From a virus (taxonomy: Duplodnaviria > Heunggongvirae > Uroviricota > Caudoviricetes): a stretch of DNA of 9,756 nucleotides. Positions within the stretch are counted from its first letter, which is position 1; each line of letters opens with the position of its first letter. This document shows, piece after piece, positions 1-9,756 of this stretch. The stretch lies in IMG/VR virus record IMGVR_UViG_3300029878_000054, positions 1 to 9,756 of that record; one strand, written 5' to 3'. The notes under the pieces are model-generated. The model was not told the origin of the DNA. It saw only the letters and a list, made by a program, of their open reading frames with translations, and did not search any database. The position numbers and the translations under genes are program-made.

Positions 1-160
1 ATAGTGCGTTCACCGAATACGTGCGCAACAACCGTCTTCCGGAGACTGTCATACGCGTAAAACAGCCAGCGCTGGCGCGATTTAGCCCCGACATAGCCCC
101 ACTGTTCGTCCATTTCCGCGCAGACGATGACGTCACTGCCCGGCTGTATGCGCGAGGTTA
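1..160 (-). mobile_element. insB: IS1 internal fragment (partial insB, running off the left edge; IS1 left end and insA absent)
   Basis: Minus-strand translation of 1-132 reads [48 protein letters not shown], which I recognise as the N-proximal part of IS1 InsB. The IS1-like DNA stops near 160, where Ala-rich repeat DNA begins, so the element is broken internally rather than at an inverted repeat. Confidence 0.8.
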
Positions 161-393
161 GCGTTTGTTTCGCTGCTCTTTGCTGCTGCCTCGCTATTTT
201 TCGCGTTGGTTTCTGATTTTTTGGCTGCTGTCGCGGAGTTTGCCGATGCAGTTTGTGAGTCTGCTGCCGCCTGTGCGCTGTTATCCGCATTCGTCTCAGA
301 CGTTTTTGCGGCCTTCGCGGAATTTCCTGCCGCCGTTGCCGAGGAAGCTGCACTAACCCTGCGTCTGTCAGCACAGTAAAACCCGGTGTGCAT
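133..393 (-). pseudogene. Chimeric remnant ORF: side-tail-fibre-like Ala/Ser/Thr/Asn-rich repeat fragment whose last codons and stop are supplied out of frame by IS1 DNA
   Basis: 86-aa ORF with SETNA-type repeats ([20 protein letters not shown] ... [21 protein letters not shown]) resembling the shaft repeats of lambdoid Stf-family tail fibres. The N-terminus ([13 protein letters not shown]) is implausible and the frame closes 4 codons upstream. The C-terminal NLAHTAGQ-stop lies inside the IS1 fragment. Confidence 0.4.
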
Positions 394-668
394 CGTTTTT
401 GATTATTCCCGCACACTCACGCAGAAGGAATTCCCCGTCGGGCTACGGTCATGGTTAATGCGGGAATACGGCGACGATACAGCGCAGCTAAAAGGGTAAT
501 AGACGGATAGACCGGTTTATTTCATTCCACAGGATTCTGAGTGTCCCCAACTTCCTCCAATAGTCTGAGCGTACACCTATATAGTTTTAATTTTCATCAA
601 TCCATTTAACTATCGTTTAATTGTTGTCACATAGGATTCTGCCGTTTTTAACAATGCAGGATAATAAG

Positions 669-962
669 ATGAAAAAAATGTTGTTTTCTGCCGCTCTGGC
701 AATGCTTATTACAGGATGTGCTCAACAGACGTTTACTGTTGGAAACAAACCGACAGCAGTAACACCAAAGGAAACCATCACCCATCACTTCTTCGTTTCG
801 GGAATTGGACAGGAGAAAACTGTCGATGCAGCCAAAATTTGTGGCGGCGCAGAAAATGTTGTTAAAACAGAAACCCAGCAAACATTCGTAAATGGATTGC
901 TCGGTTTTATTACTTTAGGCATTTATACTCCGCTGGAAGCGCGTGTGTATTGCTCACAATAA
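669..962 (+). CDS. borD: Bor-family outer-membrane lipoprotein (lambda Bor / serum-resistance lipoprotein homolog), 97 aa
   Basis: MKKMLFSAALAMLITGC... has a signal peptide with lipobox ITGC and matches lambda Bor almost along its length. AGGA lies 7 nt upstream of the ATG at 669. The ORF-track start at 621 is a TTG extension and is not used. Confidence 0.9.
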   Translation: MKKMLFSAALAMLITGCAQQTFTVGNKPTAVTPKETITHHFFVSGIGQEKTVDAAKICGGAENVVKTETQQTFVNGLLGFITLGIYTPLEARVYCSQ

Positions 963-972
963 TTGCATGAGT

Positions 973-990
973 TGCCCATCGATATGGGCA
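973..990. terminator. Hairpin between convergent bor and Rz (stem TGCCCAT / ATGGGCA, 4-nt loop); possible weak bidirectional terminator
   Basis: 7-bp perfect inverted repeat seen directly in the 31-bp gap between the bor stop (962) and the Rz/Rz1 stop (994). No U-tract on either side, hence low confidence. Confidence 0.3.
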
Positions 991-993
991 GCT

Positions 994-1455
994 CTATCTG
1001 CACTGCTCATTAATATACTTCTGGGTTCCTTCCAGTTGTTTTTGCATAGTGATCAGCCTCTCTCTGAGGGTGAAATAATCCCGTTCAGCGGTGTCTGCCA
1101 GTCGGGGGGAGGCTGCATTATCCACGCCGGAGGCGGTGGTGGCTTCACGCACTGACTGACAGACTGCTTTGATGTGCAACCGACGACGACCAGCGGCAAC
1201 ATCATCACGCAGAGCATCATTTTCAGCTTTCGCATCAGCTAACTCCTTCGTGTATTTTGCATCGAGCGCAGCAACATCACGCTGACGCATCTGCATGTCA
1301 GTAATTGCCGCGTTCGCCAGCTTCAGTTCTCTGGCATTTTTGTCGCGCTGGGCTTTGTAGGTAATGGCGTTATCACGGTAATGATTAACAGCCCATGACA
1401 GGCCGACGATGATGCAGATAACCAGAGCGGAGATAATCGCGGTTACTCTGTTCAT
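994..1455 (-). CDS. rzpD: Rz-type i-spanin (inner-membrane spanin subunit), 153 aa
   Basis: N-terminal TM helix ([18 protein letters not shown]) followed by a charged coiled-coil-like region; near-identical to DLP12 RzpD as I recall it. The ATG at 1455 overlaps the endolysin stop (ATGA arrangement). The ORF-track start at 1467 is GTG. Confidence 0.85.
1053..1235 (-). CDS. rzoD: Rz1-type o-spanin (outer-membrane lipoprotein), 60 aa, embedded in the +1 frame of Rz
   Basis: [20 protein letters not shown]... has a signal peptide with lipobox VVGC and a proline-rich mature part ([15 protein letters not shown]); it lies wholly inside Rz in another frame, the classic Rz/Rz1 arrangement. Confidence 0.8.
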
Positions 1456-1949
1456 TGCTGACCCCACAAACAGATTTCACGCTCAATCTCACGACGAGTC
1501 ATGAGACCTTTCCATTGCTTACCGCCAGCATATGTCCAGCGACGTAGCTGATCACATGCGCCTTTGATATCGCCCTGGTTTATTTTGCGAAGAAGCGTCG
1601 ATGTTCTGAAATTGCCAGCACCCACGTTGTAAACGAATGAGTAAAGAGCGCCGCGCATTGTTTCCGGTATATCGACTTTGATGTACGGGTTAATTTGTCT
1701 GGCGACCGTGGCAAGGTCTTTATTCAGGAGGGCTTTGCATTCTGCTTTGGTATACGTTTTACCGAGCATGATGTCTTTTCCTGTATGCCCGTGACATACA
1801 GTCCATACACCAACAATATCTTTGTATGGTATGTAGCTGACACCTTCCAGACCATCGTTACCACTTGGGCCAGTAATTAACACTGATGCTATAGCAATTG
1901 CTCCGCCACCAATAGCAGCAGCAACGGCTTTTCGTAATGATGGAGGCAT
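1452..1949 (-). CDS. rrrD: SAR endolysin (phage lysozyme, T4-lysozyme-like, phage 21 R type), 165 aa
   Basis: N-terminal signal-arrest-release segment ([20 protein letters not shown]) followed by a lysozyme core ([23 protein letters not shown]); the start ATG shares one nucleotide with the holin stop. Confidence 0.9.
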
Positions 1950-2164
1950 TATTCACCTCTCGCAGCCTTGCGCTTATCTTCTTTAATCTTGAAATAAAGG
2001 TTTGTCAGGTACGTCAGCAGGCCAAATACCAGGCTACCCAGCACACCTATTGCTGCCCACTGTGAGGGCGTGACTTTATCGAGCAGCTGTAAAAACCAGT
2101 AACCGGCACTACCTGCTGAGGTGCCATAGGCGACACCCGTTGTTAACTTATCCATGGATTTCAT
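1949..2164 (-). CDS. essD: Pinholin (phage 21 S-type class II holin) with dual start motif MKSMDK (antiholin/holin), 71 aa
   Basis: [71 protein letters not shown] has two TM segments and a charged C-tail. GAGGTGG lies 7-13 nt upstream of the ATG at 2164. The ORF-track start at 2209 is rejected. Confidence 0.85.
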
Positions 2165-2753
2165 AACCCCACCTCGCAGACAAAGCGGGTGTAAATTGAG
2201 GGAATACAACGTATCGCAAAAAAGCAGAAACGTAACAGACTCGGAGTCAGTGAATAACTCAGGTATTGAGTTATCAGCTAATATCGAGACTCAAAAAATG
2301 GAAAAACCAGCTCGACGGCGGGTTTAAGCTGTGTGACGAAGTAACCACTCTTAACAGCATAACCAATTTTTTACGTACGTAAACCACTGAATGATATTTA
2401 TGAGAATGCTACTGAGTGTTCAAAACACCACCACAAATACATAAGAAAACCTCAACAAATAACCAACAAATAATTTCCAGTGTTATTTTTAGCCGATTTA
2501 AATTGAACCTTCAAATTATAGAGCGCTTATAAATAACAGCCGTTAATATAAATTGGCTAATAGATTTATTTTTATTCAGCCAAGAGCTATGAATAGGATT
2601 CGATAGAAAAAAGTTCAGATAAAAATAGAGATCTACTTCACAAATCAAACGAGAAACCAAAACTTACATCTTGAAATAATCACATTGATTAGATGAATAT
2701 TTATCGCGCAGTGACATCATTTTTTAATAATAGTTCAAAAAAAAGGGCTCACG

Positions 2754-3851
2754 ATGAAAAAATTAACAGTGGCAATTTCTGCTGTAGCTGCATCAGTACT
2801 GATGGCGATGTCTGCTCAGGCAGCTGAAATTTATAATAAAGACAGTAACAAGCTGGATCTGTACGGGAAAGTTAATGCCAAGCACTACTTCTCCTCTAAT
2901 GATGCAGATGATGGTGATACTACTTATGCCCGTCTTGGCTTCAAAGGTGAAACCCAAATCAACGATCAACTGACTGGTTTCGGTCAGTGGGAATATGAAT
3001 TCAAAGGCAACCGCGCTGAATCTCAAGGTTCCTCCAAAGACAAAACCCGTCTTGCATTTGCAGGCCTGAAATTCGGTGACTACGGCTCAATCGATTACGG
3101 CCGTAACTACGGTGTAGCATACGACATCGGTGCGTGGACTGACGTTCTGCCAGAATTCGGTGGCGATACCTGGACCCAAACAGATGTGTTCATGACTGGT
3201 CGCACCACTGGTGTTGCAACCTATCGTAACAACGACTTCTTTGGTCTGGTTGATGGTCTGAACTTTGCTGCTCAGTACCAAGGCAAAAACGATCGTAGCG
3301 ATTTCGATAACTACACTGAAGGTAACGGTGATGGCTTCGGTTTCTCTGCTACCTATGAATACGAAGGATTCGGTATCGGTGCAACTTATGCGAAATCTGA
3401 TCGTACCGACACTCAAGTTAATGCAGGGAAAGTTCTTCCTGAAGTATTTGCTTCCGGTAAAAATGCAGAAGTTTGGGCCGCAGGTCTGAAATATGACGCT
3501 AACAACATTTACCTGGCCACTACCTATTCTGAAACCCAGAATATGACTGTATTTGCTGATCACTTCGTTGCTAATAAAGCCCAAAACTTCGAAGCTGTTG
3601 CACAATATCAGTTCGATTTCGGTCTGCGTCCGTCCGTTGCTTACCTGCAATCTAAAGGTAAAGATCTTGGAGTATGGGGCGATCAGGACTTAGTCAAATA
3701 TGTTGATGTAGGTGCAACCTATTACTTCAACAAAAATATGTCTACTTTCGTTGATTACAAAATCAACCTGCTTGACAAAAATGACTTCACTAAAGCACTC
3801 GGTGTAAGCACTGATGACATCGTTGCTGTAGGTCTGGTTTACCAGTTCTAA
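2754..3851 (+). CDS. nmpC: General-diffusion outer-membrane porin, NmpC/OmpD type (OmpC/OmpF/PhoE family), 365 aa, apparently intact
   Basis: Signal peptide ending AQA, then AEIYNKD; porin-family sequence throughout; C-terminal ...VGLVYQF with terminal Phe. High-expression-style codon usage. It sits between Q and the lysis cassette on the opposite strand, as nmpC does in DLP12. Confidence 0.93.
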
Positions 3852-3860
3852 TCTGATTAC

Positions 3861-3901
3861 GAAAAAGATATGTTGCGGGAGGCGTTGCCTCCCCAACATA
3901 T
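3861..3901 (-). terminator. Rho-independent terminator for minus-strand (late, Q-side) transcription; candidate tR'-like terminator
   Basis: On the minus strand this is ATATGTTGGGGAGGCAACGCCTCCCGCAACATAT followed by CTTTTTC: a ~15-bp stem with one bulge and a 3-nt loop, then a U-tract. It is read directly from the sequence. Confidence 0.5.
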
Positions 3902-3988
3902 AAGTGGCTCCCTCAAGCCACTTCCTTTAGAAGCACAACCTTGCTTCTAACTATATAAACCTTCTGTTATATATTACCCTTTATTTTT

Positions 3989-4016
3989 GGGGGCGTCTCA
4001 ACGCCCCATTTTTAAT
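3989..4016 (+). terminator. Rho-independent terminator for plus-strand transcription (likely the distal terminator of the porin gene)
   Basis: GGGGGCGT-ctca-ACGCCCC followed by ATTTTTAAT on the plus strand; hairpins at 3902-3928 (AAGTGGCT/AGCCACTT then CCTTT) and 3927-3950 (TTAGAAGCA/TGCTTCTAA) lie just upstream. Confidence 0.5.
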
Positions 4017-4040
4017 AATTTTTAGTAAACAATTGGCATA

Positions 4041-4424
4041 TTAATTAGAGTTATTAACAACGATATCCATCTCTAACCGGATATCTAATGCCATTAACAT
4101 CCCTTCAATTATGCCCTCAGCCTTCTGTAACCTTTTCCCGATATAACCATCAGAGCAGCAATGCTTACCTGCCAGTGACATGAATGTCATACCGACTACA
4201 TAATAATCTACTAATAAATCGTGCAAATCGCTGTTGTTCTTTTTCAGACGGGCCATGCACCCGCAAATGATCATCGCGTCATCGTCACAACATTGCGGGC
4301 GAGATTTTACTTTTGAAGGAATTAATCCCTTAAAACCGGCGGCAATGGACGACCAGGTCACATCTTCATGATTATTAGCCGCCCACGCTCCCCAACGCTC
4401 AAGAACCATCTGAATATCACGCAT
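4041..4424 (-). CDS. quuD: Late-gene antiterminator Q (DLP12 QuuD type), 127 aa
   Basis: [24 protein letters not shown]...[18 protein letters not shown]...HCCSDGY matches QuuD as I remember it, including the Cys-rich zinc-binding region. Start chosen at MRDIQ (4424) rather than the ORF-track start at 4439. Confidence 0.85.
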
Positions 4425-4509
4425 CAACTTACTCCACAAAAATCAGACCAGAACGCCAATCACAAGCAAAAATCAACAAAACAGTATTAGTTGATTGTTA
4501 TCTCTGACT

Positions 4510-4632
4510 TCATACTCCTGCTCCTGTCAGGGTTTTGGCGTAATTCTTCAGTATTCGGTAATCGGTCAAAACAGAACCGGGGAAACGATATAAGCGCAGA
4601 TGCCCCCAGCGGTGGCGAAGAAGTTCTGCCAT
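4510..4632 (-). CDS. Small ORF (40 aa) between rusA and Q, at the position of ylcG in DLP12
   Basis: Hand translation of the minus strand gives MAELLRHRWGHLRLYRFPGSVLTDYRILKNYAKTLTGAGV-stop, starting 14 nt after the rusA stop. It is below the ORF-track size cut-off. No strong SD; identity to YlcG not verified. Confidence 0.4.
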   Translation of the reverse strand: MAELLRHRWGHLRLYRFPGSVLTDYRILKNYAKTLTGAGV

Positions 4633-4646
4633 ATAAAACTCAAACA

Positions 4647-5009
4647 TCATTCATTCCCCATTTCGGTGATGGTCAGTTCCAGCCTCCCACCTTTGGTAAC
4701 GGGCATCTTCACAACGCGGTAATCAACGACCTGAGCATCATCCAGCCAGAAACCTGCTTTAGTGAGTGCGTCAAAAGCGGCTTTTTGCAGATTATCCAGG
4801 TCACGGCGACGGCGATCCGGCATGTGGCACTCAATGCGGATTTTCACAGGCATAGCCAGGCCGATATCCAGCATTGCGTTTTTAATGATTCGGGCGACGT
4901 TATCGCGGTATGCCTGCCCCTCTGCGCTGATGTGCGTGCGCCCGCGATTATGGCGGTAATAGCGATTATTGCTCGGAGGCCAGGGTAATGTGATGCTGTA
5001 GGTATTCAC
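4647..5009 (-). CDS. rusA: Crossover-junction endodeoxyribonuclease RusA (Holliday-junction resolvase), 120 aa
   Basis: [26 protein letters not shown]...[51 protein letters not shown] is essentially the K-12 RusA sequence as I recall it; the start overlaps the ybcO stop (ATGA). Confidence 0.95.
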
Positions 5010-5296
5010 GCCTTAATAACCCCCTCTTTCAGCCAGATAACCTGTGTTCTCGCCATACCTTCCAGCGCACATTCTTTTGCATATGCAGCATCGACAAAAT
5101 GTGTGCGGCGGTCGATTTCGTCGTGGCAGGCAGAACATGCAATGGTGGCAATCAGGTCTGGCGGTTTGATACCGGTACCGCACAATCCAGCCAGCCGGAT
5201 ATGTGCCAGTACAGACGTTTCAGGGTTGCCATTACATACGCCAGGGATTCTTACCTGGCATTCCCGACCACGCGCTGCTTTTCTCAAATCAGCCAT
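5006..5296 (-). CDS. ybcO: YbcO-family protein (DUF1364, Cys-rich putative nuclease of lambdoid nin regions), 96 aa
   Basis: [62 protein letters not shown]... with a strong SD (AGGAGG) before the ATG at 5296; the ORF-track extension to 5335 uses a TTG and is rejected. Confidence 0.85.
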
Positions 5297-5459
5297 GACT
5301 CCTCCTTGCTGCCAGTCGCAACCATTTTTTATCAACCAAGCTGGCGGTATATCCGAGCAGTGTTGGTATTTCGGAAGGCTTCAGCTCAGGTTTACGCTTA
5401 CGACGATTTGGTACTCTGTAAATGTGCCCGTTCATGACACGAATAAGCGGTGTAGCCAT
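5289..5459 (-). CDS. ninE: NinE-family small protein, 56 aa
   Basis: Hand translation gives [56 protein letters not shown]-stop, with the basic KRKP...WLR pattern of lambda NinE. The start shares one nucleotide with the ybcN stop and the end overlaps the ybcO start by 8 nt. Not in the ORF track because of its size. Confidence 0.6.
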   Translation of the reverse strand: MATPLIRVMNGHIYRVPNRRKRKPELKPSEIPTLLGYTASLVDKKWLRLAARRSHG

Positions 5460-5914
5460 TACGCCTCCTGCTTGTCGCGCAGCAGCTGGAACTCGCAGCT
5501 CTGCGGAATAGTCAGGTGGCAGCCAATATTCATCGCCCAGGCTTCAACCTTACACAGGAAGACATACATCTCTCCGGTATCAAGATCGGAGGTATGGCGT
5601 AACGACTGGATAGTAGTGATTTCGCCGGTTACGACATCAACCAAGTCCTTGGTTTCATAACCGAGGTATGTGTGTTTGAGTGCATCTTTTACCCATACTG
5701 CAGTAGCGAACGTTTTCCCCCTGCTGATGAGGTACTCGCTGATTTCGCTGTACCACATGTGGCTGAGTGCATTCTGGGAAAGACTGCGTCTCTCGCGCCA
5801 CGGTTTAAGCACCATGCGAAAGCATTTTCCGTCCTCCAGATAAGGCTGGATCTGCTGACCGATAGTGGTGAAGTTACCGCGATGTAATTTGATGCCGTCT
5901 TGTGGGAGGTTCAC
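5459..5914 (-). CDS. ybcN: NinB/Orf-family recombination protein (DLP12 YbcN-like), 151 aa, GTG start
   Basis: Contains the [12 protein letters not shown] motif characteristic of NinB-family proteins; GGAGGTG sits 4-10 nt upstream of the GTG at 5914-5912. Confidence 0.85.
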
Positions 5915-6012
5915 GCTTCACCTCCGCAGAGGTCAAACGTTGGATGCAAAGAATCGCAGGTGCATTTCTGCATCTGTGAAGGGAGAAGAGAGTTTAGATT
6001 GTATGTGCGCAT
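5911..6012 (-). CDS. Small ORF (33 aa) upstream of and overlapping the ybcN start, at the position of ylcH in DLP12
   Basis: Minus-strand hand translation gives [33 protein letters not shown]-stop; its TGA overlaps the ybcN GTG (GTGA). Length equals K-12 ylcH (33 aa) as I recall, but the sequence identity is not verified. Confidence 0.35.
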
Positions 6013-6301
6013 AAACGTCCCCGTTTAGCGCAGAAGTCACCGGAGGTGTTCAGGCTCCGATGCGATAATTATGACGATCTGATTTTGGAAAATCAAATTT
6101 AAGTAACCGCCAACCTATAATTTTCAATCAAGATTTCATTTATTAGCTCACTCATATAAAAATACATTACAACGTTTTTATCTCTTAATTTATGAAGGCA
6201 ACCTCGAAAAACAAATCACCCAAACACTTTAAAACAATTAAACCCGTTTAAAATTACAATTACATTTAGAAAGCAAACTTTCAAAAGATGTGATGATACA
6301 A

Positions 6302-6330
6302 TTGCATAAAACAAATACTTGGGGTAAAAT
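6302..6330 (+). promoter_or_regulatory. Candidate sigma70 promoter for the AT-rich cargo operon (TTGCAT-N17-TAAAAT)
   Basis: -35-like TTGCAT at 6302-6307 and -10-like TAAAAT at 6325-6330 with 17-nt spacing, about 100 nt upstream of the first ATG of the island. AT-rich DNA generates such matches easily, hence low confidence. Confidence 0.3.
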
Positions 6331-6436
6331 ATAAAAATAACACTCCCAGCTTAACGCTAGGTGGCGGTAGCGTGTATTTTTCAAATACGCCTATCACCCC
6401 ATTATGTTTTTTCATATTTAAGAGATTGGTTATATA

Positions 6437-6811
6437 ATGGAACTAATATACACTTATATCCACAATTATAAAGGTTTAAATAAGCTGTCCCTCCCCACCT
6501 CAAGTAAATTTACCTTTAGCCATAAAGGTAACGTCCTTACAATTGCTAAGAAAGATTTAAGTCGTGACTATTATAGCAATATTCCCTGTACATTAATTTT
6601 AGGGAAAAATGGTGTTGGAAAGTCATCAATTTTAGATTTCATTAGTAGCTTTATTTACGATTTTGAAGGTAGCGGTTATAGCATCTGGAATGAAAATGAT
6701 AAACTTATAATTATCACAAGCAATTGCAAACCTCCTGTAATATTATCCAAAATGCAAACGGAACTGATTGATAATAATGAACATTTTTTAGAAGAAACAA
6801 AATCAATCTAA
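6437..6811 (+). CDS. N-terminal portion of an ABC/AAA15-type ATPase (Walker A only); probably the 5' half of a gene split by a frameshift
   Basis: P-loop LILGKNGVGKSSILD at residues ~53-67; no Walker B, signature or H-loop motif in this ORF. The frame ends at 6811, 31 nt after the downstream frame opens. Confidence 0.7.
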   Translation: MELIYTYIHNYKGLNKLSLPTSSKFTFSHKGNVLTIAKKDLSRDYYSNIPCTLILGKNGVGKSSILDFISSFIYDFEGSGYSIWNENDKLIIITSNCKPPVILSKMQTELIDNNEHFLEETKSI

Positions 6812-6843
6812 TAAAGATAAATAACACAATCGACCTCAAAAGT

Positions 6844-8223
6844 ATGTTAGTTGGACAAAAAAAGAAAAAAAACGATTCGATTTCTAAAGATTTATCACTG
6901 TCATATTTTTTGCAAGGCAGTAAAACACGCAATAAGAAATTACTCAAGCAATTAATTTCATTTTCAGACCACAGTTCATGGGCTAAAGACAATTTATCAA
7001 GACTTAATACTAAATTTCAATTTGAAATAGAAAACTCACCAGTATATAAAATAAATTCTATTATAAAAAACAATGATATTGGTGACAAAGGACTTTTTGG
7101 AGCTATTGAATACTTTTTTGATACGTTGAATGATAGAATTAAAAACAATAAACTCCCTAGATATATTGAACGTGATTTAGATTCTTTAGGTATTTCACTT
7201 GTGGATATACTCAATCATGGGATAGATTACGATGAAGATTTTATTATTAGCATTATTTTTAACAAAGAAAGATCATTAAATTTCCTCGCAACCTTTTCAT
7301 ATCACAAAATAATTTACTTGATGCTTTTGCCTGCAATAACATGGCATTTACTCAAGACATCAAAAATCCCTAAAGACATATGTGAGACTGTTTATTTATT
7401 TTGCTTGTGTCGCGCGTATCTTGAAGAAAAAGATCCAGCAAAAACTATATTAGAGACTTTAGATGAATTTAACGTTAATGTTAAATTTCAGTCAAAAATA
7501 GAAATGTTATCTGAACATATCTCCGACATTATAGGTAATATAGCTGATATATTAGAAAACACAGCAAGAGACCCAGTTGATAGTTTATCTTTCACAGTTG
7601 AAGAACCAAAGCAGATTATGGAGTTAATAAGATTAGTTGATAGGTTACCAAATGGCGTATCATCGCGATTTAAGTATGGTTGGGATTCACTTAGTTCAGG
7701 AGAGTTTGCAAAATTAAACCTTTTCAATCAACTTTATGATTCTATAGAACATAGCAACAGCAAAAATATTATAATATTATTAGATGAGTGTGATTTATAT
7801 CTACACCCTGAATGGCAACGAGTTATTTTTTCAGAAATTATAGATTTAACATTAAGATATAAACAAAGTAAAAATATTCAATTAGTATTTACAACTCACT
7901 CCCCTATACTCGCAAGTGATTTTTTGCCATCAGATATAATATATCTTGAAAGAGATCATAATCAAGGAACCTATACTAAGAAAGTAGAGTTTGGTTTCGG
8001 AGCAACCATATCAGAATTATATATAAATGGTTTTTTTATTGATGCTACAATAGGACAGCACGCACATAATTATCTAAACTCAATAATAAAAAACTCAGAT
8101 GACGGTAATTTAAATAAACATCAAAAAACCATACTATCACAAATTAAAAATAAACTTCTCATAAATCTTATTGATCTGAAGTTAAACAAAAACAATGATA
8201 AAACAGATTCTTTTGAGAAATGA
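6844..8223 (+). CDS. C-terminal portion of the same ABC/AAA15-type ATPase (signature, Walker B and H-loop motifs); a fused model 6437..8223 gives ~595 aa if one T is added to the T6 run at 6784-6789
   Basis: LSSGE signature-like motif, Walker B IIILLDECDLYLHP and H-loop VFTTHSP; no Walker A. The frame is open upstream to 6781 with no ATG before 6844. Confidence 0.7.
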   Translation: MLVGQKKKKNDSISKDLSLSYFLQGSKTRNKKLLKQLISFSDHSSWAKDNLSRLNTKFQFEIENSPVYKINSIIKNNDIGDKGLFGAIEYFFDTLNDRIKNNKLPRYIERDLDSLGISLVDILNHGIDYDEDFIISIIFNKERSLNFLATFSYHKIIYLMLLPAITWHLLKTSKIPKDICETVYLFCLCRAYLEEKDPAKTILETLDEFNVNVKFQSKIEMLSEHISDIIGNIADILENTARDPVDSLSFTVEEPKQIMELIRLVDRLPNGVSSRFKYGWDSLSSGEFAKLNLFNQLYDSIEHSNSKNIIILLDECDLYLHPEWQRVIFSEIIDLTLRYKQSKNIQLVFTTHSPILASDFLPSDIIYLERDHNQGTYTKKVEFGFGATISELYINGFFIDATIGQHAHNYLNSIIKNSDDGNLNKHQKTILSQIKNKLLINLIDLKLNKNNDKTDSFEK

Positions 8224-8741
8224 GTAAAAAAATGATAAAAATAAACAAAGACTTCAATGTTGATGTAAAAATATCCTTTTCTAAAATAGTAAGCAAAGTT
8301 AATAAACGCGTGAAGCAGAGGAAGTTACTGAACATTACTCCCGATGAAGTAGAGTTTCTAAATACAATCAACAAAAAAACTATCAGAAAATTAGTTTTTT
8401 CAAAACCCAAACGATTAAAAAATATAATCATCAAAATATACAACAAACACCCAATTGTGTGTGAGTACTATTCTCCTGATTATTTTTTAAGGCACTTAAA
8501 TTTACAACCATTAACAAACCTACAATTACCTTTAAAAACAAAAGAAAACAAAAAAATAGTTTATAATGAACTAGCACATGCCATCAAAATAATCACATCT
8601 TTCTCTCAAACTACACAAAGCCTAATACTTGAGGATATATTAAATACACATTTCTCACCACAAAAATTATCTAGTTTAAGAGATAAGATTCTTAATCTTA
8701 TAAGTATCAAGAATGGTGGTCCTAAAGGAAAATACCATTAA
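8220..8741 (+). CDS. Hypothetical lysine-rich basic protein, 173 aa, unknown function
   Basis: ORF whose ATG overlaps the stop of the ATPase ORF (ATGA); no recognisable catalytic motif. An alternative start at 8232 (MIKINK) is possible. Same extreme AT-richness as its neighbours. Confidence 0.5.
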   Translation: MSKKMIKINKDFNVDVKISFSKIVSKVNKRVKQRKLLNITPDEVEFLNTINKKTIRKLVFSKPKRLKNIIIKIYNKHPIVCEYYSPDYFLRHLNLQPLTNLQLPLKTKENKKIVYNELAHAIKIITSFSQTTQSLILEDILNTHFSPQKLSSLRDKILNLISIKNGGPKGKYH

Positions 8742-9423
8742 GTTATTTCCATCATGGGTTAAAAATATTTCTGAAATATTTAAATACTCACTTATTGATA
8801 GAGAAACAGCGTATCAATTGAACAGTTTTTTAGACATTAGCATATGCCCATATTGCAACAGTGAAGAAATTGAACAAGTAGAAGACCATACAGGTACTAG
8901 CTACAGGCCAGCATTTGATCATTTCATACCTAAGTACAAATATCCGTTGATCTCCTTTAGTTTATTTAACTTAATTCCTAGCTGCACTAAATGCAATAGT
9001 ACTTATAAAAAATCACTCGATCCGATCATGAGCCCATTTTCAAATCCTTTTCTTGAAGGTGTAAATGACACTCAGCTTTTTGATTTTAATTATGACATTG
9101 ATTATATATATAGAGATGGCCAAATTGATGATGATCACATTCAAATTATACTAAAAAAACAAAAAAACAACATCGATGAAAACATGGCTAAACTTAGCAT
9201 AGAGAATAGATATAATTCACGCATTAGAAAGAAAGCAGTTAGATTAATTGCAAAGAGAGCATTTGATCTAAAAGCTTATGAAGAAAATTTCATTATAGAA
9301 CCAACTCTTTTCGCTACTTTCGGTTACGAGACTAACATTGAGCCGCTAAAGCATATGCATAAAAAACTTACTCAAGATGCAATATTAGTATTCTGCAACA
9401 AACAAGTACCGTTAATTGAATAA
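8713..9423 (+). CDS. HNH (His-Me finger) endonuclease-domain protein, 236 aa
   Basis: CPYC ... (22 aa) ... DHFIP ... NLIPS ... CTKCN, i.e. the CxxC / DH / N / CxxC arrangement typical of HNH nucleases, in the N-terminal half. The start overlaps the preceding ORF by 29 nt. Confidence 0.7.
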   Translation: MVVLKENTIKLFPSWVKNISEIFKYSLIDRETAYQLNSFLDISICPYCNSEEIEQVEDHTGTSYRPAFDHFIPKYKYPLISFSLFNLIPSCTKCNSTYKKSLDPIMSPFSNPFLEGVNDTQLFDFNYDIDYIYRDGQIDDDHIQIILKKQKNNIDENMAKLSIENRYNSRIRKKAVRLIAKRAFDLKAYEENFIIEPTLFATFGYETNIEPLKHMHKKLTQDAILVFCNKQVPLIE

Positions 9424-9680
9424 GTAAAATGAAAGGATATCGAGCTATATAATGTAGTATGTCGAAAAATCAAACAGAAAAAAATCGAATAGTTACACTG
9501 TGCTCGGTGCTGTCTTCATGCTCCGTTCCTCTCGTAGGCTAGTAAAATTCGCGTCATCACCGGGCTTGGGGGCCATCATCGAAAATCTGATTGGTGCTTT
9601 TGTGCCAAGAGATTTCCTCTTCGGTTACCAATCGGTAGTGAATCGTTCGCTAGATATTGCTGACATCGACCAGATCGCCC

Positions 9681-9756
9681 TGATCTTACCCAGCAATAGT
9701 GGACACGCGGCTAAGTGAGTAAACTCTCAGTCAGAGGTGACTCACATGACAAAAAC
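9681..9756 (+). mobile_element. Left end of an IS3-type insertion sequence (terminal inverted repeat starting TGATCTTACCCAGCAATAGTGGACACGCGG), continuing off the right edge
   Basis: The sequence from 9681 matches what I recall as the IS3 left end, including the GAGGTGA SD and the ATG at 9736 that begins orfA (MTK...). Confidence 0.75.
9736..9756 (+). CDS. insE: IS3 OrfA (transposase N-terminal subunit), first 7 codons only (partial at window edge)
   Basis: ATG ACA AAA AC... preceded by GAGGTGA 8 nt upstream, consistent with the IS3 orfA start MTKTVS... Confidence 0.6.

What the first reader, a model, noticed from the sequence alone, without database searches (positions are those of the whole stretch)
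8220..8741. Uncharacterised lysine-rich 173-aa protein sandwiched between ATPase and HNH nuclease
Seen in sequence: an ORF translationally coupled on both sides (ATGA overlap upstream, 29-nt overlap downstream), very basic (many Lys/Arg, KxxK runs), with no Cys/His cluster or nucleotide-binding motif. Inference: it is a third subunit, for example a nucleic-acid-binding sensor or adaptor, which is the part of the system that departs most from known ATPase+HNH pairs. The alternative is that it is an N-terminal extension of the HNH protein separated by another frameshift, but the HNH frame only opens at 8704, so this would require an indel.
Basis: partly seen in the sequence, partly recalled or inferred. 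Interest (0 to 1): 0.55.

Follow-up and report, generated by a model that had tools for sequence, protein, structure and literature searches.

The report
Frameshifted N-terminal half of HNH nuclease
The "173-aa lysine-rich protein" is not a third gene: it is the N-terminal helical domain of a 397-aa HNH nuclease, cut off by a 2-base deletion, in a decayed copy of a two-gene Septu-like (PADLOC candidate PDC-M62) phage-defence cassette carried by an E. coli lambdoid prophage.

Summary
The ORF is real at 8220-8741, with the ATGA overlap upstream and the 29-nt overlap downstream. Its status as a separate gene comes from indels. Six complete E. coli genomes carry the same AT-rich island at 99.3-99.8% identity. 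In four of them it holds two genes, a 595-aa AAA_15/AAA_21 ATPase and a 397-aa HNH protein. The window differs from these by three indels:
- T7->T6 splits the ATPase.
- A8->A7 creates the ATGA-overlapping start; the conserved start is ATG 8232.
- A TT deletion at 8723 splits the 397-aa gene after Pro164.

The fused ~390-aa architecture persists down to 22% identity. All 47 full-length carriers of the N-domain among 1.84 billion representatives also carry the HNH part. No relative examined has a third gene.

The broken allele is real: eight independent contigs match it without gaps. It is probably inactive. Interest is low to moderate.

The parts
6437..6811 (+). 5' fragment of the ATPase gene (124-aa ORF; Walker A GKNGVGKS at residues 56-63 of the intact protein)
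   Evidence: In intact relatives it is the start of a 595-aa AAA family ATPase (WP_001702986).
6784..6789 (+). T6 tract; T7 in intact relatives. The 1-nt deletion frameshifts the ATPase near codon 116.
   Evidence: window versus L001 and L002; versus L003.
6844..8223 (+). 3' remainder of the ATPase gene (459-aa ORF; signature LSSGE and Walker B IIILLDE; AAA_15/AAA_21). PDC-M62A / PtuA-like.
   Evidence: Pfam; PADLOC PDC-M62A 4e-44, PtuA 4.7e-19 for the intact protein; solved PtuA structures, E 3e-7.
8226..8232 (+). A7 tract; A8 in the RefSeq relatives. The shorter tract puts ATG 8220 in frame and creates the ATGA overlap and 4 extra residues (MSKK). The tract length is polymorphic; a 401-aa intact allele exists.
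8232..8723 (+). Codons 1-164 of the 397-aa HNH gene: the all-helical N-terminal accessory domain (the core of the finding). The conserved start is ATG 8232, since homologues begin MI(K/R).
   Evidence: alignment A1; AlphaFold2 pLDDT 91 and 88, helices 10-161; always fused to the HNH part; dN/dS 0.07-0.25.
8721..8728 (+). Break point: CCTAAAGG here, CCTTTAAAGG in intact relatives. The 2-nt (TT) deletion after Pro164 shifts the frame, which then reads KGKYH and stops at 8739-8741.
8713..9423 (+). 236-aa ORF = MVV plus residues 165-397 of the HNH protein. This is the complete PtuB-like core: Zn finger C206/C209/C252/C255, D230-H231, N247, N256 (intact numbering), and a helical C-terminal domain.

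Best explanation
The 173-aa ORF is the 5' part of a pseudogenised gene. In intact form the locus is a two-gene cassette in the nin region of a DLP12-like lambdoid prophage, between ybcN/ninB and replication gene P. The first gene encodes a 595-aa ABC-type ATPase (PADLOC PDC-M62A, PtuA-like). The second, closely adjacent or overlapping gene encodes a 397-aa HNH nuclease (PDC-M62B). That nuclease has a ~164-residue all-helical N-terminal accessory domain followed by a complete PtuB-like core: a Zn-finger HNH domain plus a helical C-terminal domain. Shown here: the gene fusion, its conservation, purifying selection on the N-domain, and the PtuA/PtuB-like sequence and fold. Inferred by analogy with Septu and retron-Eco7 PtuAB (PMC12819146, PMC12673091, PMC13096335): the ATPase oligomer holds the nuclease through the nuclease's C-terminal helices, and phage infection releases or activates it to cut DNA or tRNA and abort infection. 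Inferred, with low confidence: the N-domain is a clade-specific regulatory or adaptor module that packs on the nuclease core. It may gate the core or give an extra contact to the ATPase, which is 100-200 aa larger than Septu PtuA. It is probably not a generic nucleic-acid binder. In this window the cassette carries two disabling frameshifts: T7->T6 in the ATPase, and a TT deletion after Pro164 of the nuclease. A harmless A8->A7 change makes ATG 8220 look like a coupled start. The copy is therefore most likely non-functional.
Against: There is no experimental evidence on PDC-M62 or on this E. coli cassette; it is an unpublished PADLOC candidate (PMC11811056). The role of the N-domain is inference only. 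The break falls exactly at the boundary between the accessory domain and a canonical-size PtuB core, so a residual activity of the 236-aa product cannot be excluded by sequence alone. The curated NCBIfam PtuB and TIGR02646 models score far below their cut-offs.
Confidence: 0.92

Rival explanations
1. A genuine third subunit: the 173-aa ORF is an independent, translationally coupled gene encoding a sensor or adaptor that works with the ATPase and HNH proteins.
For: In the window the ORF has its own ATG, overlaps both neighbours, and is called as a gene in public assemblies.
Against: Both overlaps are created by indels relative to islands that are 99.8% identical. All full-length relatives are fused, and no separate N-domain gene is seen apart from short pieces of 53-235 aa read as fragments. 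Six divergent loci have two genes. The extra MSKK start is absent from every homologue.
Confidence: 0.02
2. Split but still functional: the TT deletion falls in the inter-domain loop, so the N-domain (173 aa) and a PtuB-size core (236 aa, restarting at ATG 8713 inside the overlap) are both made and re-associate. The allele would then be a natural three- or four-polypeptide version of the system.
For: The break lies after Pro164, in a non-helical stretch of the model between helices 147-160 and 167-170. The 236-aa ORF equals a whole canonical PtuB. The allele persists in many independent samples.
Against: The same allele also has the ATPase frameshifted between Walker A and the rest, losing residues 117-135, and ATPase motifs are essential in Septu (PMC13096335). 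All eight loci match without gaps at 99.98-100%, which fits one recent clone rather than long maintenance. The extreme N-terminus appears to dock on the core only in the single-chain model: pLDDT 93 in the full model against 52 in the N-domain model.
Confidence: 0.05
3. Sequencing or assembly error: the three indels are homopolymer miscalls in one assembly, and the real genome has intact genes.
For: Two of the three indels lie in T7 and A8 homopolymers, and the window shows 3 indels but only 1 SNP against L001 within the island.
Against: Contigs matching the window without gaps, all three indels included, come from eight independent ENA, Logan (SRA) and NCBI samples. The exact ORF products are on 28-49 contigs. 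The TT deletion is not a long-homopolymer event.
Confidence: 0.02
4. Slippage-prone tracts act as an ON/OFF switch (phase variation, or transcriptional slippage) for a costly prophage defence cassette.
For: Several different frameshift alleles exist in E. coli at A/T tracts: A8/A7 at 8226, A7->A6 at 8373, changes around the A7 tract at 8550, and T7->T6 at 6784. The A8/A7 state varies even within the TT-deletion lineage (169-aa versus 173-aa products). Roughly half of public copies are broken.
Against: Tracts of 7-8 nt are short for classical phase variation. The TT deletion is not readily reversible. The counts can be explained by clonal expansion of a few decayed lineages such as ETEC. No reversion events were demonstrated.
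Confidence: 0.04

Closest known systems
PADLOC candidate system PDC-M62 (PDC-M62A ATPase + PDC-M62B HNH protein; unpublished candidate of Payne et al. 2021, see PMC11811056)
   Same: Both intact proteins hit the PDC-M62 models best (A 4e-44 over residues 1-570; B 1.5e-33, with one model spanning residues 1-347, which includes the N-domain). The gene order and adjacency are the same. In the Bacillus cereus group PDC-M62 calls coincide with DefenseFinder Septu calls (203 cases, PMC11811056).
   Different: The window's copy is broken into four ORFs by two frameshifts. No experimental validation of PDC-M62 was found in the searchable literature.
Septu (PtuA ATPase + PtuB HNH nuclease), including Septu Ec-B88 and the structure 8EE4/8EE7
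   Different: Canonical PtuB is 210-234 aa with the catalytic His at ~57-75. Here the His is at 231, because a ~164-aa helical domain precedes the core. The ATPase is 595 aa, against 465 aa for Septu PtuA. The curated NCBIfam PtuA, PtuB and TIGR02646 models score far below their cut-offs.
Retron type I-A (Ec78/Eco7, Ec83) PtuAB effector module
   Different: No reverse-transcriptase gene is annotated or called next to the pair, in the window's relatives or in the other loci examined; a retron ncRNA was not searched for. The N-terminal domain on the nuclease is absent from retron PtuB.

Membership tests
PDC-M62 (PADLOC candidate) | Protein A matches the PDC-M62A HMMs | tested here: met
   The intact 595-aa ATPase scores 4e-44 against PDLC04734, aligned 1-570 of 595. 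The window's copy is the same gene at 99.8% identity but frameshifted.
PDC-M62 (PADLOC candidate) | Protein B matches the PDC-M62B HMMs, N-terminal region included | tested here: met
   PDLC04743 scores 1.5e-33 over residues 107-344. PDLC04741 scores 8.8e-26 over residues 1-347. The window's 173-aa fragment alone gives no PADLOC hit.
PDC-M62 (PADLOC candidate) | The two genes are adjacent, on the same strand, with A upstream of B | tested here: met
Septu (PtuA/PtuB) | PtuA: ABC/SMC-like ATPase with Walker A, signature and Walker B motifs | tested here: met
   Walker A is GKNGVGKS at 56, the signature LSSGE at 419, and Walker B IIILLDE at 445. Pfam AAA_21 and AAA_15 hit, PADLOC PtuA scores 4.7e-19, and PDB PtuA scores about 3e-7. 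In the window the gene is interrupted between Walker A and the remainder.
Septu (PtuA/PtuB) | PtuB: HNH nuclease domain with a four-Cys zinc finger, followed by a three-helix C-terminal domain that binds PtuA | tested here: met
Septu (PtuA/PtuB) | Scores above the curated cut-offs of NCBIfam PtuA (NF041760), PtuB (NF041761) and TIGR02646 | tested here: not met
   PtuA scores 48.5 bits against a cut-off of 500. PtuB scores 13.9 against 150. TIGR02646 scores 14.8 against 52.15. These models are equivalogs of the retron Ec78 proteins, so failing them excludes that narrow family, not the Septu-like kind.
Septu (PtuA/PtuB) | Canonical PtuB size and architecture (~210-234 aa, no N-terminal extension) | tested here: not met
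   The protein is 397 aa with a ~164-aa helical domain before the core.
Septu (PtuA/PtuB) | Protects against phage; requires both the ATPase and the HNH motifs | not testable with these tools
   This needs plaque assays with the intact allele and motif mutants, as was done for Septu Ec-B88 (PMC13096335).
Retron type I-A | An adjacent reverse transcriptase and msr/msd ncRNA | tested here: not met
   No RT gene is annotated or called next to the pair in any locus examined. An ncRNA was not searched for specifically.

The most novel reading that the evidence does not exclude
The most novel reading not excluded is this. The ~164-aa helical domain defines a distinct 'long-PtuB' branch of Septu-like systems, in which the nuclease carries its own sensor or gate. 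The recurrent natural breaks inside or just after this domain in E. coli would then be selected events, not neutral decay: the TT deletion here, the A7->A6 allele with an intact ATPase in ETEC strains, and the fragments broken around 8550. They would detune or switch a toxic effector, for example by leaving a canonical-size PtuB core expressed from an internal start.
Probability: 0.07. Interest if true: 0.55.

Novelty: new member of a known kind. Interest (0 to 1): 0.2.

Why it matters
The main value is corrective. A gene caller, or a reader, that takes this window at face value reports a three- or four-gene system with a novel 'third subunit'. The real unit is a two-gene ATPase-HNH cassette that PADLOC already catalogues as PDC-M62 and that is Septu-like. 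The same artefact has entered databases: PHROGs has separate families for two fragments of this one gene.

The biological residue is modest. Some Septu-like nucleases carry a conserved, structurally confident, unannotated ~164-residue helical domain in front of a complete PtuB core, and its role is unknown. The natural truncation alleles in E. coli offer ready-made constructs for testing it.

Tried and rejected
**Domain assignment of the 173-aa ORF or N-domain.**
- Pfam, NCBIfam and PADLOC on the fragment, and Pfam on all 12 members of alignment A3, gave only sub-threshold noise such as Ig_TMM62 and EcoEI_R_C.
- A PDB sequence profile search gave nothing; the best hit was Septin-14 at E 0.28.
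- Foldseek of the full model against PDB gave nothing at E < 0.3.

**Nucleic-acid binding inferred from basicity.** Rejected as a conserved property. N-domain net charge ranges from -12 to +21 across 56 family members, and only 61% have pI above 8.5. The lysine richness here partly reflects the 27-30% GC content of the island.

**Homology to other long HNH relatives.** hhalign of the N-domain against the N-terminal regions of ~370-450-aa HNH relatives, Bacillus included, gave only a 30-column match at 84% probability. This is inconclusive.

**Deposited phage genomes.** Only one weak partial hit.

**Sequencing error.** Rejected.

**Spurious AT-rich ORF.** Rejected.

**Different prophage contexts for the broken allele.** Differences in gene calls suggested this, but BLAST shows all eight loci are the same sequence as the window.

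**Li et al. 2024 (PMC12318543).** The paper is not held.

Full report
**Setting.** The window is part of a DLP12-like lambdoid prophage of E. coli. It holds Bor/Iss, Rz/Rz1, lysozyme, holin, a porin, Q, rusA, ybcO, ninE and ybcN. Between ybcN and replication gene P lies an island at about 6300-9450 on the + strand. Its GC content is 26-31%, against 41-55% in most of the flanks. The finding lies in this island.

**Observation.**
- The 173-codon ORF spans 8220-8741.
- Its ATG overlaps the TGA of the upstream ATPase ORF, giving ATGA.
- The next ORF starts at 8713, a 29-nt overlap, in a frame that opens at 8704.
- The product has 28 Lys, 6 Arg and 1 Cys, with pI 10.15.
- No hit reaches a curated cut-off in Pfam, NCBIfam or PADLOC.
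- A stop-free run this long does not arise in 500 shuffles of the island, where the maximum is 144 codons.

**What it really is.** Megablast against 5,426 complete E. coli genomes found the island in six chromosomes at 99.3-99.8% identity. In four of them it is annotated as two genes: an AAA family ATPase of 595 aa (WP_001702986 in strain TW10828) and a hypothetical protein of 397 aa (WP_004030156 in TW10828). Against strain TW10828, the window's island shows one SNP and three indels:
1. T7->T6 at 6784-6789 splits the ATPase into 124-aa and 459-aa ORFs.
2. A8->A7 at 8226-8232 brings ATG 8220 into frame. This creates the ATGA overlap and four extra residues (MSKK). The true start is ATG 8232, because every homologue begins MI(K/R).
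3. A TT deletion (CCTTTAAAGG -> CCTAAAGG) at 8723 ends the frame after Pro164.

The 173-aa product is therefore MSKK + residues 1-164 + KGKYH. The 236-aa product is MVV + residues 165-397.

**Is the fusion the ancestral, selected state?** Yes, on four lines of evidence.
- The homology search returned 396-401-aa proteins from Serratia, Morganella, Enterobacter, Citrobacter, Pantoea, Atlantibacter and Ewingella, at 84% down to 43% identity and 99-100% coverage. Enterovibrio (31% identity, 85% coverage) and Pseudoalteromonas (59% coverage; 30% by BLASTP, 22% over alignment A1) extend the series. The alignment is continuous through the break point.
- A profile of the N-domain alone, run against 1.84 billion cluster representatives, found only 57 clusters. 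All 47 of 370-407 aa carry the domain at residues 1-~170 and also carry the HNH part (E <= 1e-36). The ten short ones are 53-235 aa and are read as fragments.
- Loci from Enterovibrio, Pseudoalteromonas, Bacillus cereus, Serratia, Morganella and Enterobacter all show an AAA_15/AAA_21 ATPase of 561-667 aa. It is followed by the ~390-aa HNH gene, which overlaps it by 8-17 nt or follows after a gap of up to 12 nt. None has a third gene.
- dN/dS of codons 1-165 is 0.07-0.25, like the rest of the gene. The N-domain is a real, constrained protein domain, not a spurious AT-rich ORF, and it is not a gene of its own.

**Is the broken allele real?** Yes. The exact 124-, 459-, 173- and 236-aa products occur on 49, 32, 28 and 41 public contigs. 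Eight loci from independent ENA, Logan and NCBI samples match the window without gaps at 99.98-100%, so they share all three indels. This is a circulating clonal allele, not an assembly error. Other alleles exist:
- an intact 401-aa form (A7 tract);
- a 322-aa form, in which an A7->A6 change at 8373 breaks the N-domain while the ATPase stays intact, as in ETEC-2264;
- fragments of 108-114 aa broken around the A7 tract at 8550.

**Family.** PADLOC assigns the intact proteins to the candidate system PDC-M62: A at 4e-44, and B at 1.5e-33 with one model covering residues 1-347. Weaker hits go to Septu PtuA (4.7e-19), PtuB (2.8e-8) and PDC-M01B. In the B. cereus group PDC-M62 calls coincide with DefenseFinder Septu calls (PMC11811056). 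Solved PtuA chains are the ATPase's best PDB relatives.

The Zn-finger cysteines (C206, C209, C252, C255) and the catalytic D230-H231, N247 and N256 are conserved. They correspond to C43/C46/C78/C90 and H57 of retron-Eco7 PtuB (PMC12673091). The offset of about 163 residues equals the N-domain. The window's deletion therefore cuts almost exactly between the accessory domain and a canonical-size PtuB core, which is why the three-gene reading looked natural.

**Mechanism.**
- Established for Septu and retron PtuAB, from the literature: the ATPase oligomer binds the nuclease through the nuclease's C-terminal helices; both the ATPase and HNH motifs are needed; activation leads to DNA nicking or tRNA-Tyr cleavage and to growth arrest (PMC12819146, PMC12673091, PMC13096335).
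- Inferred here: the intact cassette works in the same way.
- Inferred with low confidence: the N-domain is a clade-specific regulatory or adaptor module. Two observations bear on this. Its basicity is not conserved, with net charge from -12 to +21, which argues against a generic nucleic-acid-binding role. Its first ten residues are confident only in the full-length model (pLDDT 93 against 52), which suggests the N-terminus docks on the core.

With both genes frameshifted, the window's copy is most likely inactive. A residual role for the 236-aa core cannot be excluded by sequence.

**Verdict.** The locus is a decayed member of a catalogued Septu-like candidate family. Novelty is limited to an uncharacterised accessory domain, and interest is low to moderate.

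Noticed in passing
window 6437-8223 (T tract at 6784-6789): The ATPase is also a pseudogene. T7->T6 splits the 595-aa gene into 124-aa and 459-aa ORFs and loses residues 117-135, between Walker A and the rest of the protein.
   Followed up: yes
window 8232-9423; PHROGs phrog_9626 and phrog_8644: PHROGs contains two separate 'families' that are fragments of this single gene. One is a 108-aa N-terminal piece. The other is the 322-aa GTG-started remainder of the A7->A6 allele. Frameshift alleles have thus been turned into database families.
   Followed up: partly
window 8373-8379 and 8550-8556 (A7 tracts); L003 (ETEC-2264): Several independent frameshift alleles of the HNH gene circulate in E. 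coli. From a partial read of the cluster, about 204 contigs carry the 322-aa allele and about 41 the 236-aa allele, against about 217 with intact 397-401-aa forms. In ETEC-2264 the ATPase is intact and only the N-domain is broken. Whether this is clonal decay or selection was not resolved.
   Followed up: partly
window 6300-9450 versus the flanks 340-6300: Against strain TW10828 the island has 1 SNP (0.3 per kb), while the rest of the compared prophage stretch (340-9687) has 65 SNPs (10.5 per kb). The cassette appears much more recently shared than its prophage backbone.
   Followed up: no
window 2754-3851 (+), 621-962 (+), 994-1467 and 1053-1235 (-): Ordinary lambdoid cargo and lysis genes: a prophage-borne 365-aa porin, a Bor/Iss-type lipoprotein, and Rz with the nested Rz1 lipoprotein ORF.
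   Followed up: no
window 1-340 and 9688-9756: Both ends of the window diverge sharply from strain TW10828. The left end encodes an Ala/Ser/Thr/Asn-rich repetitive 86-aa ORF on the - strand (133-393). This is consistent with the mosaic structure of lambdoid prophages.
   Followed up: no
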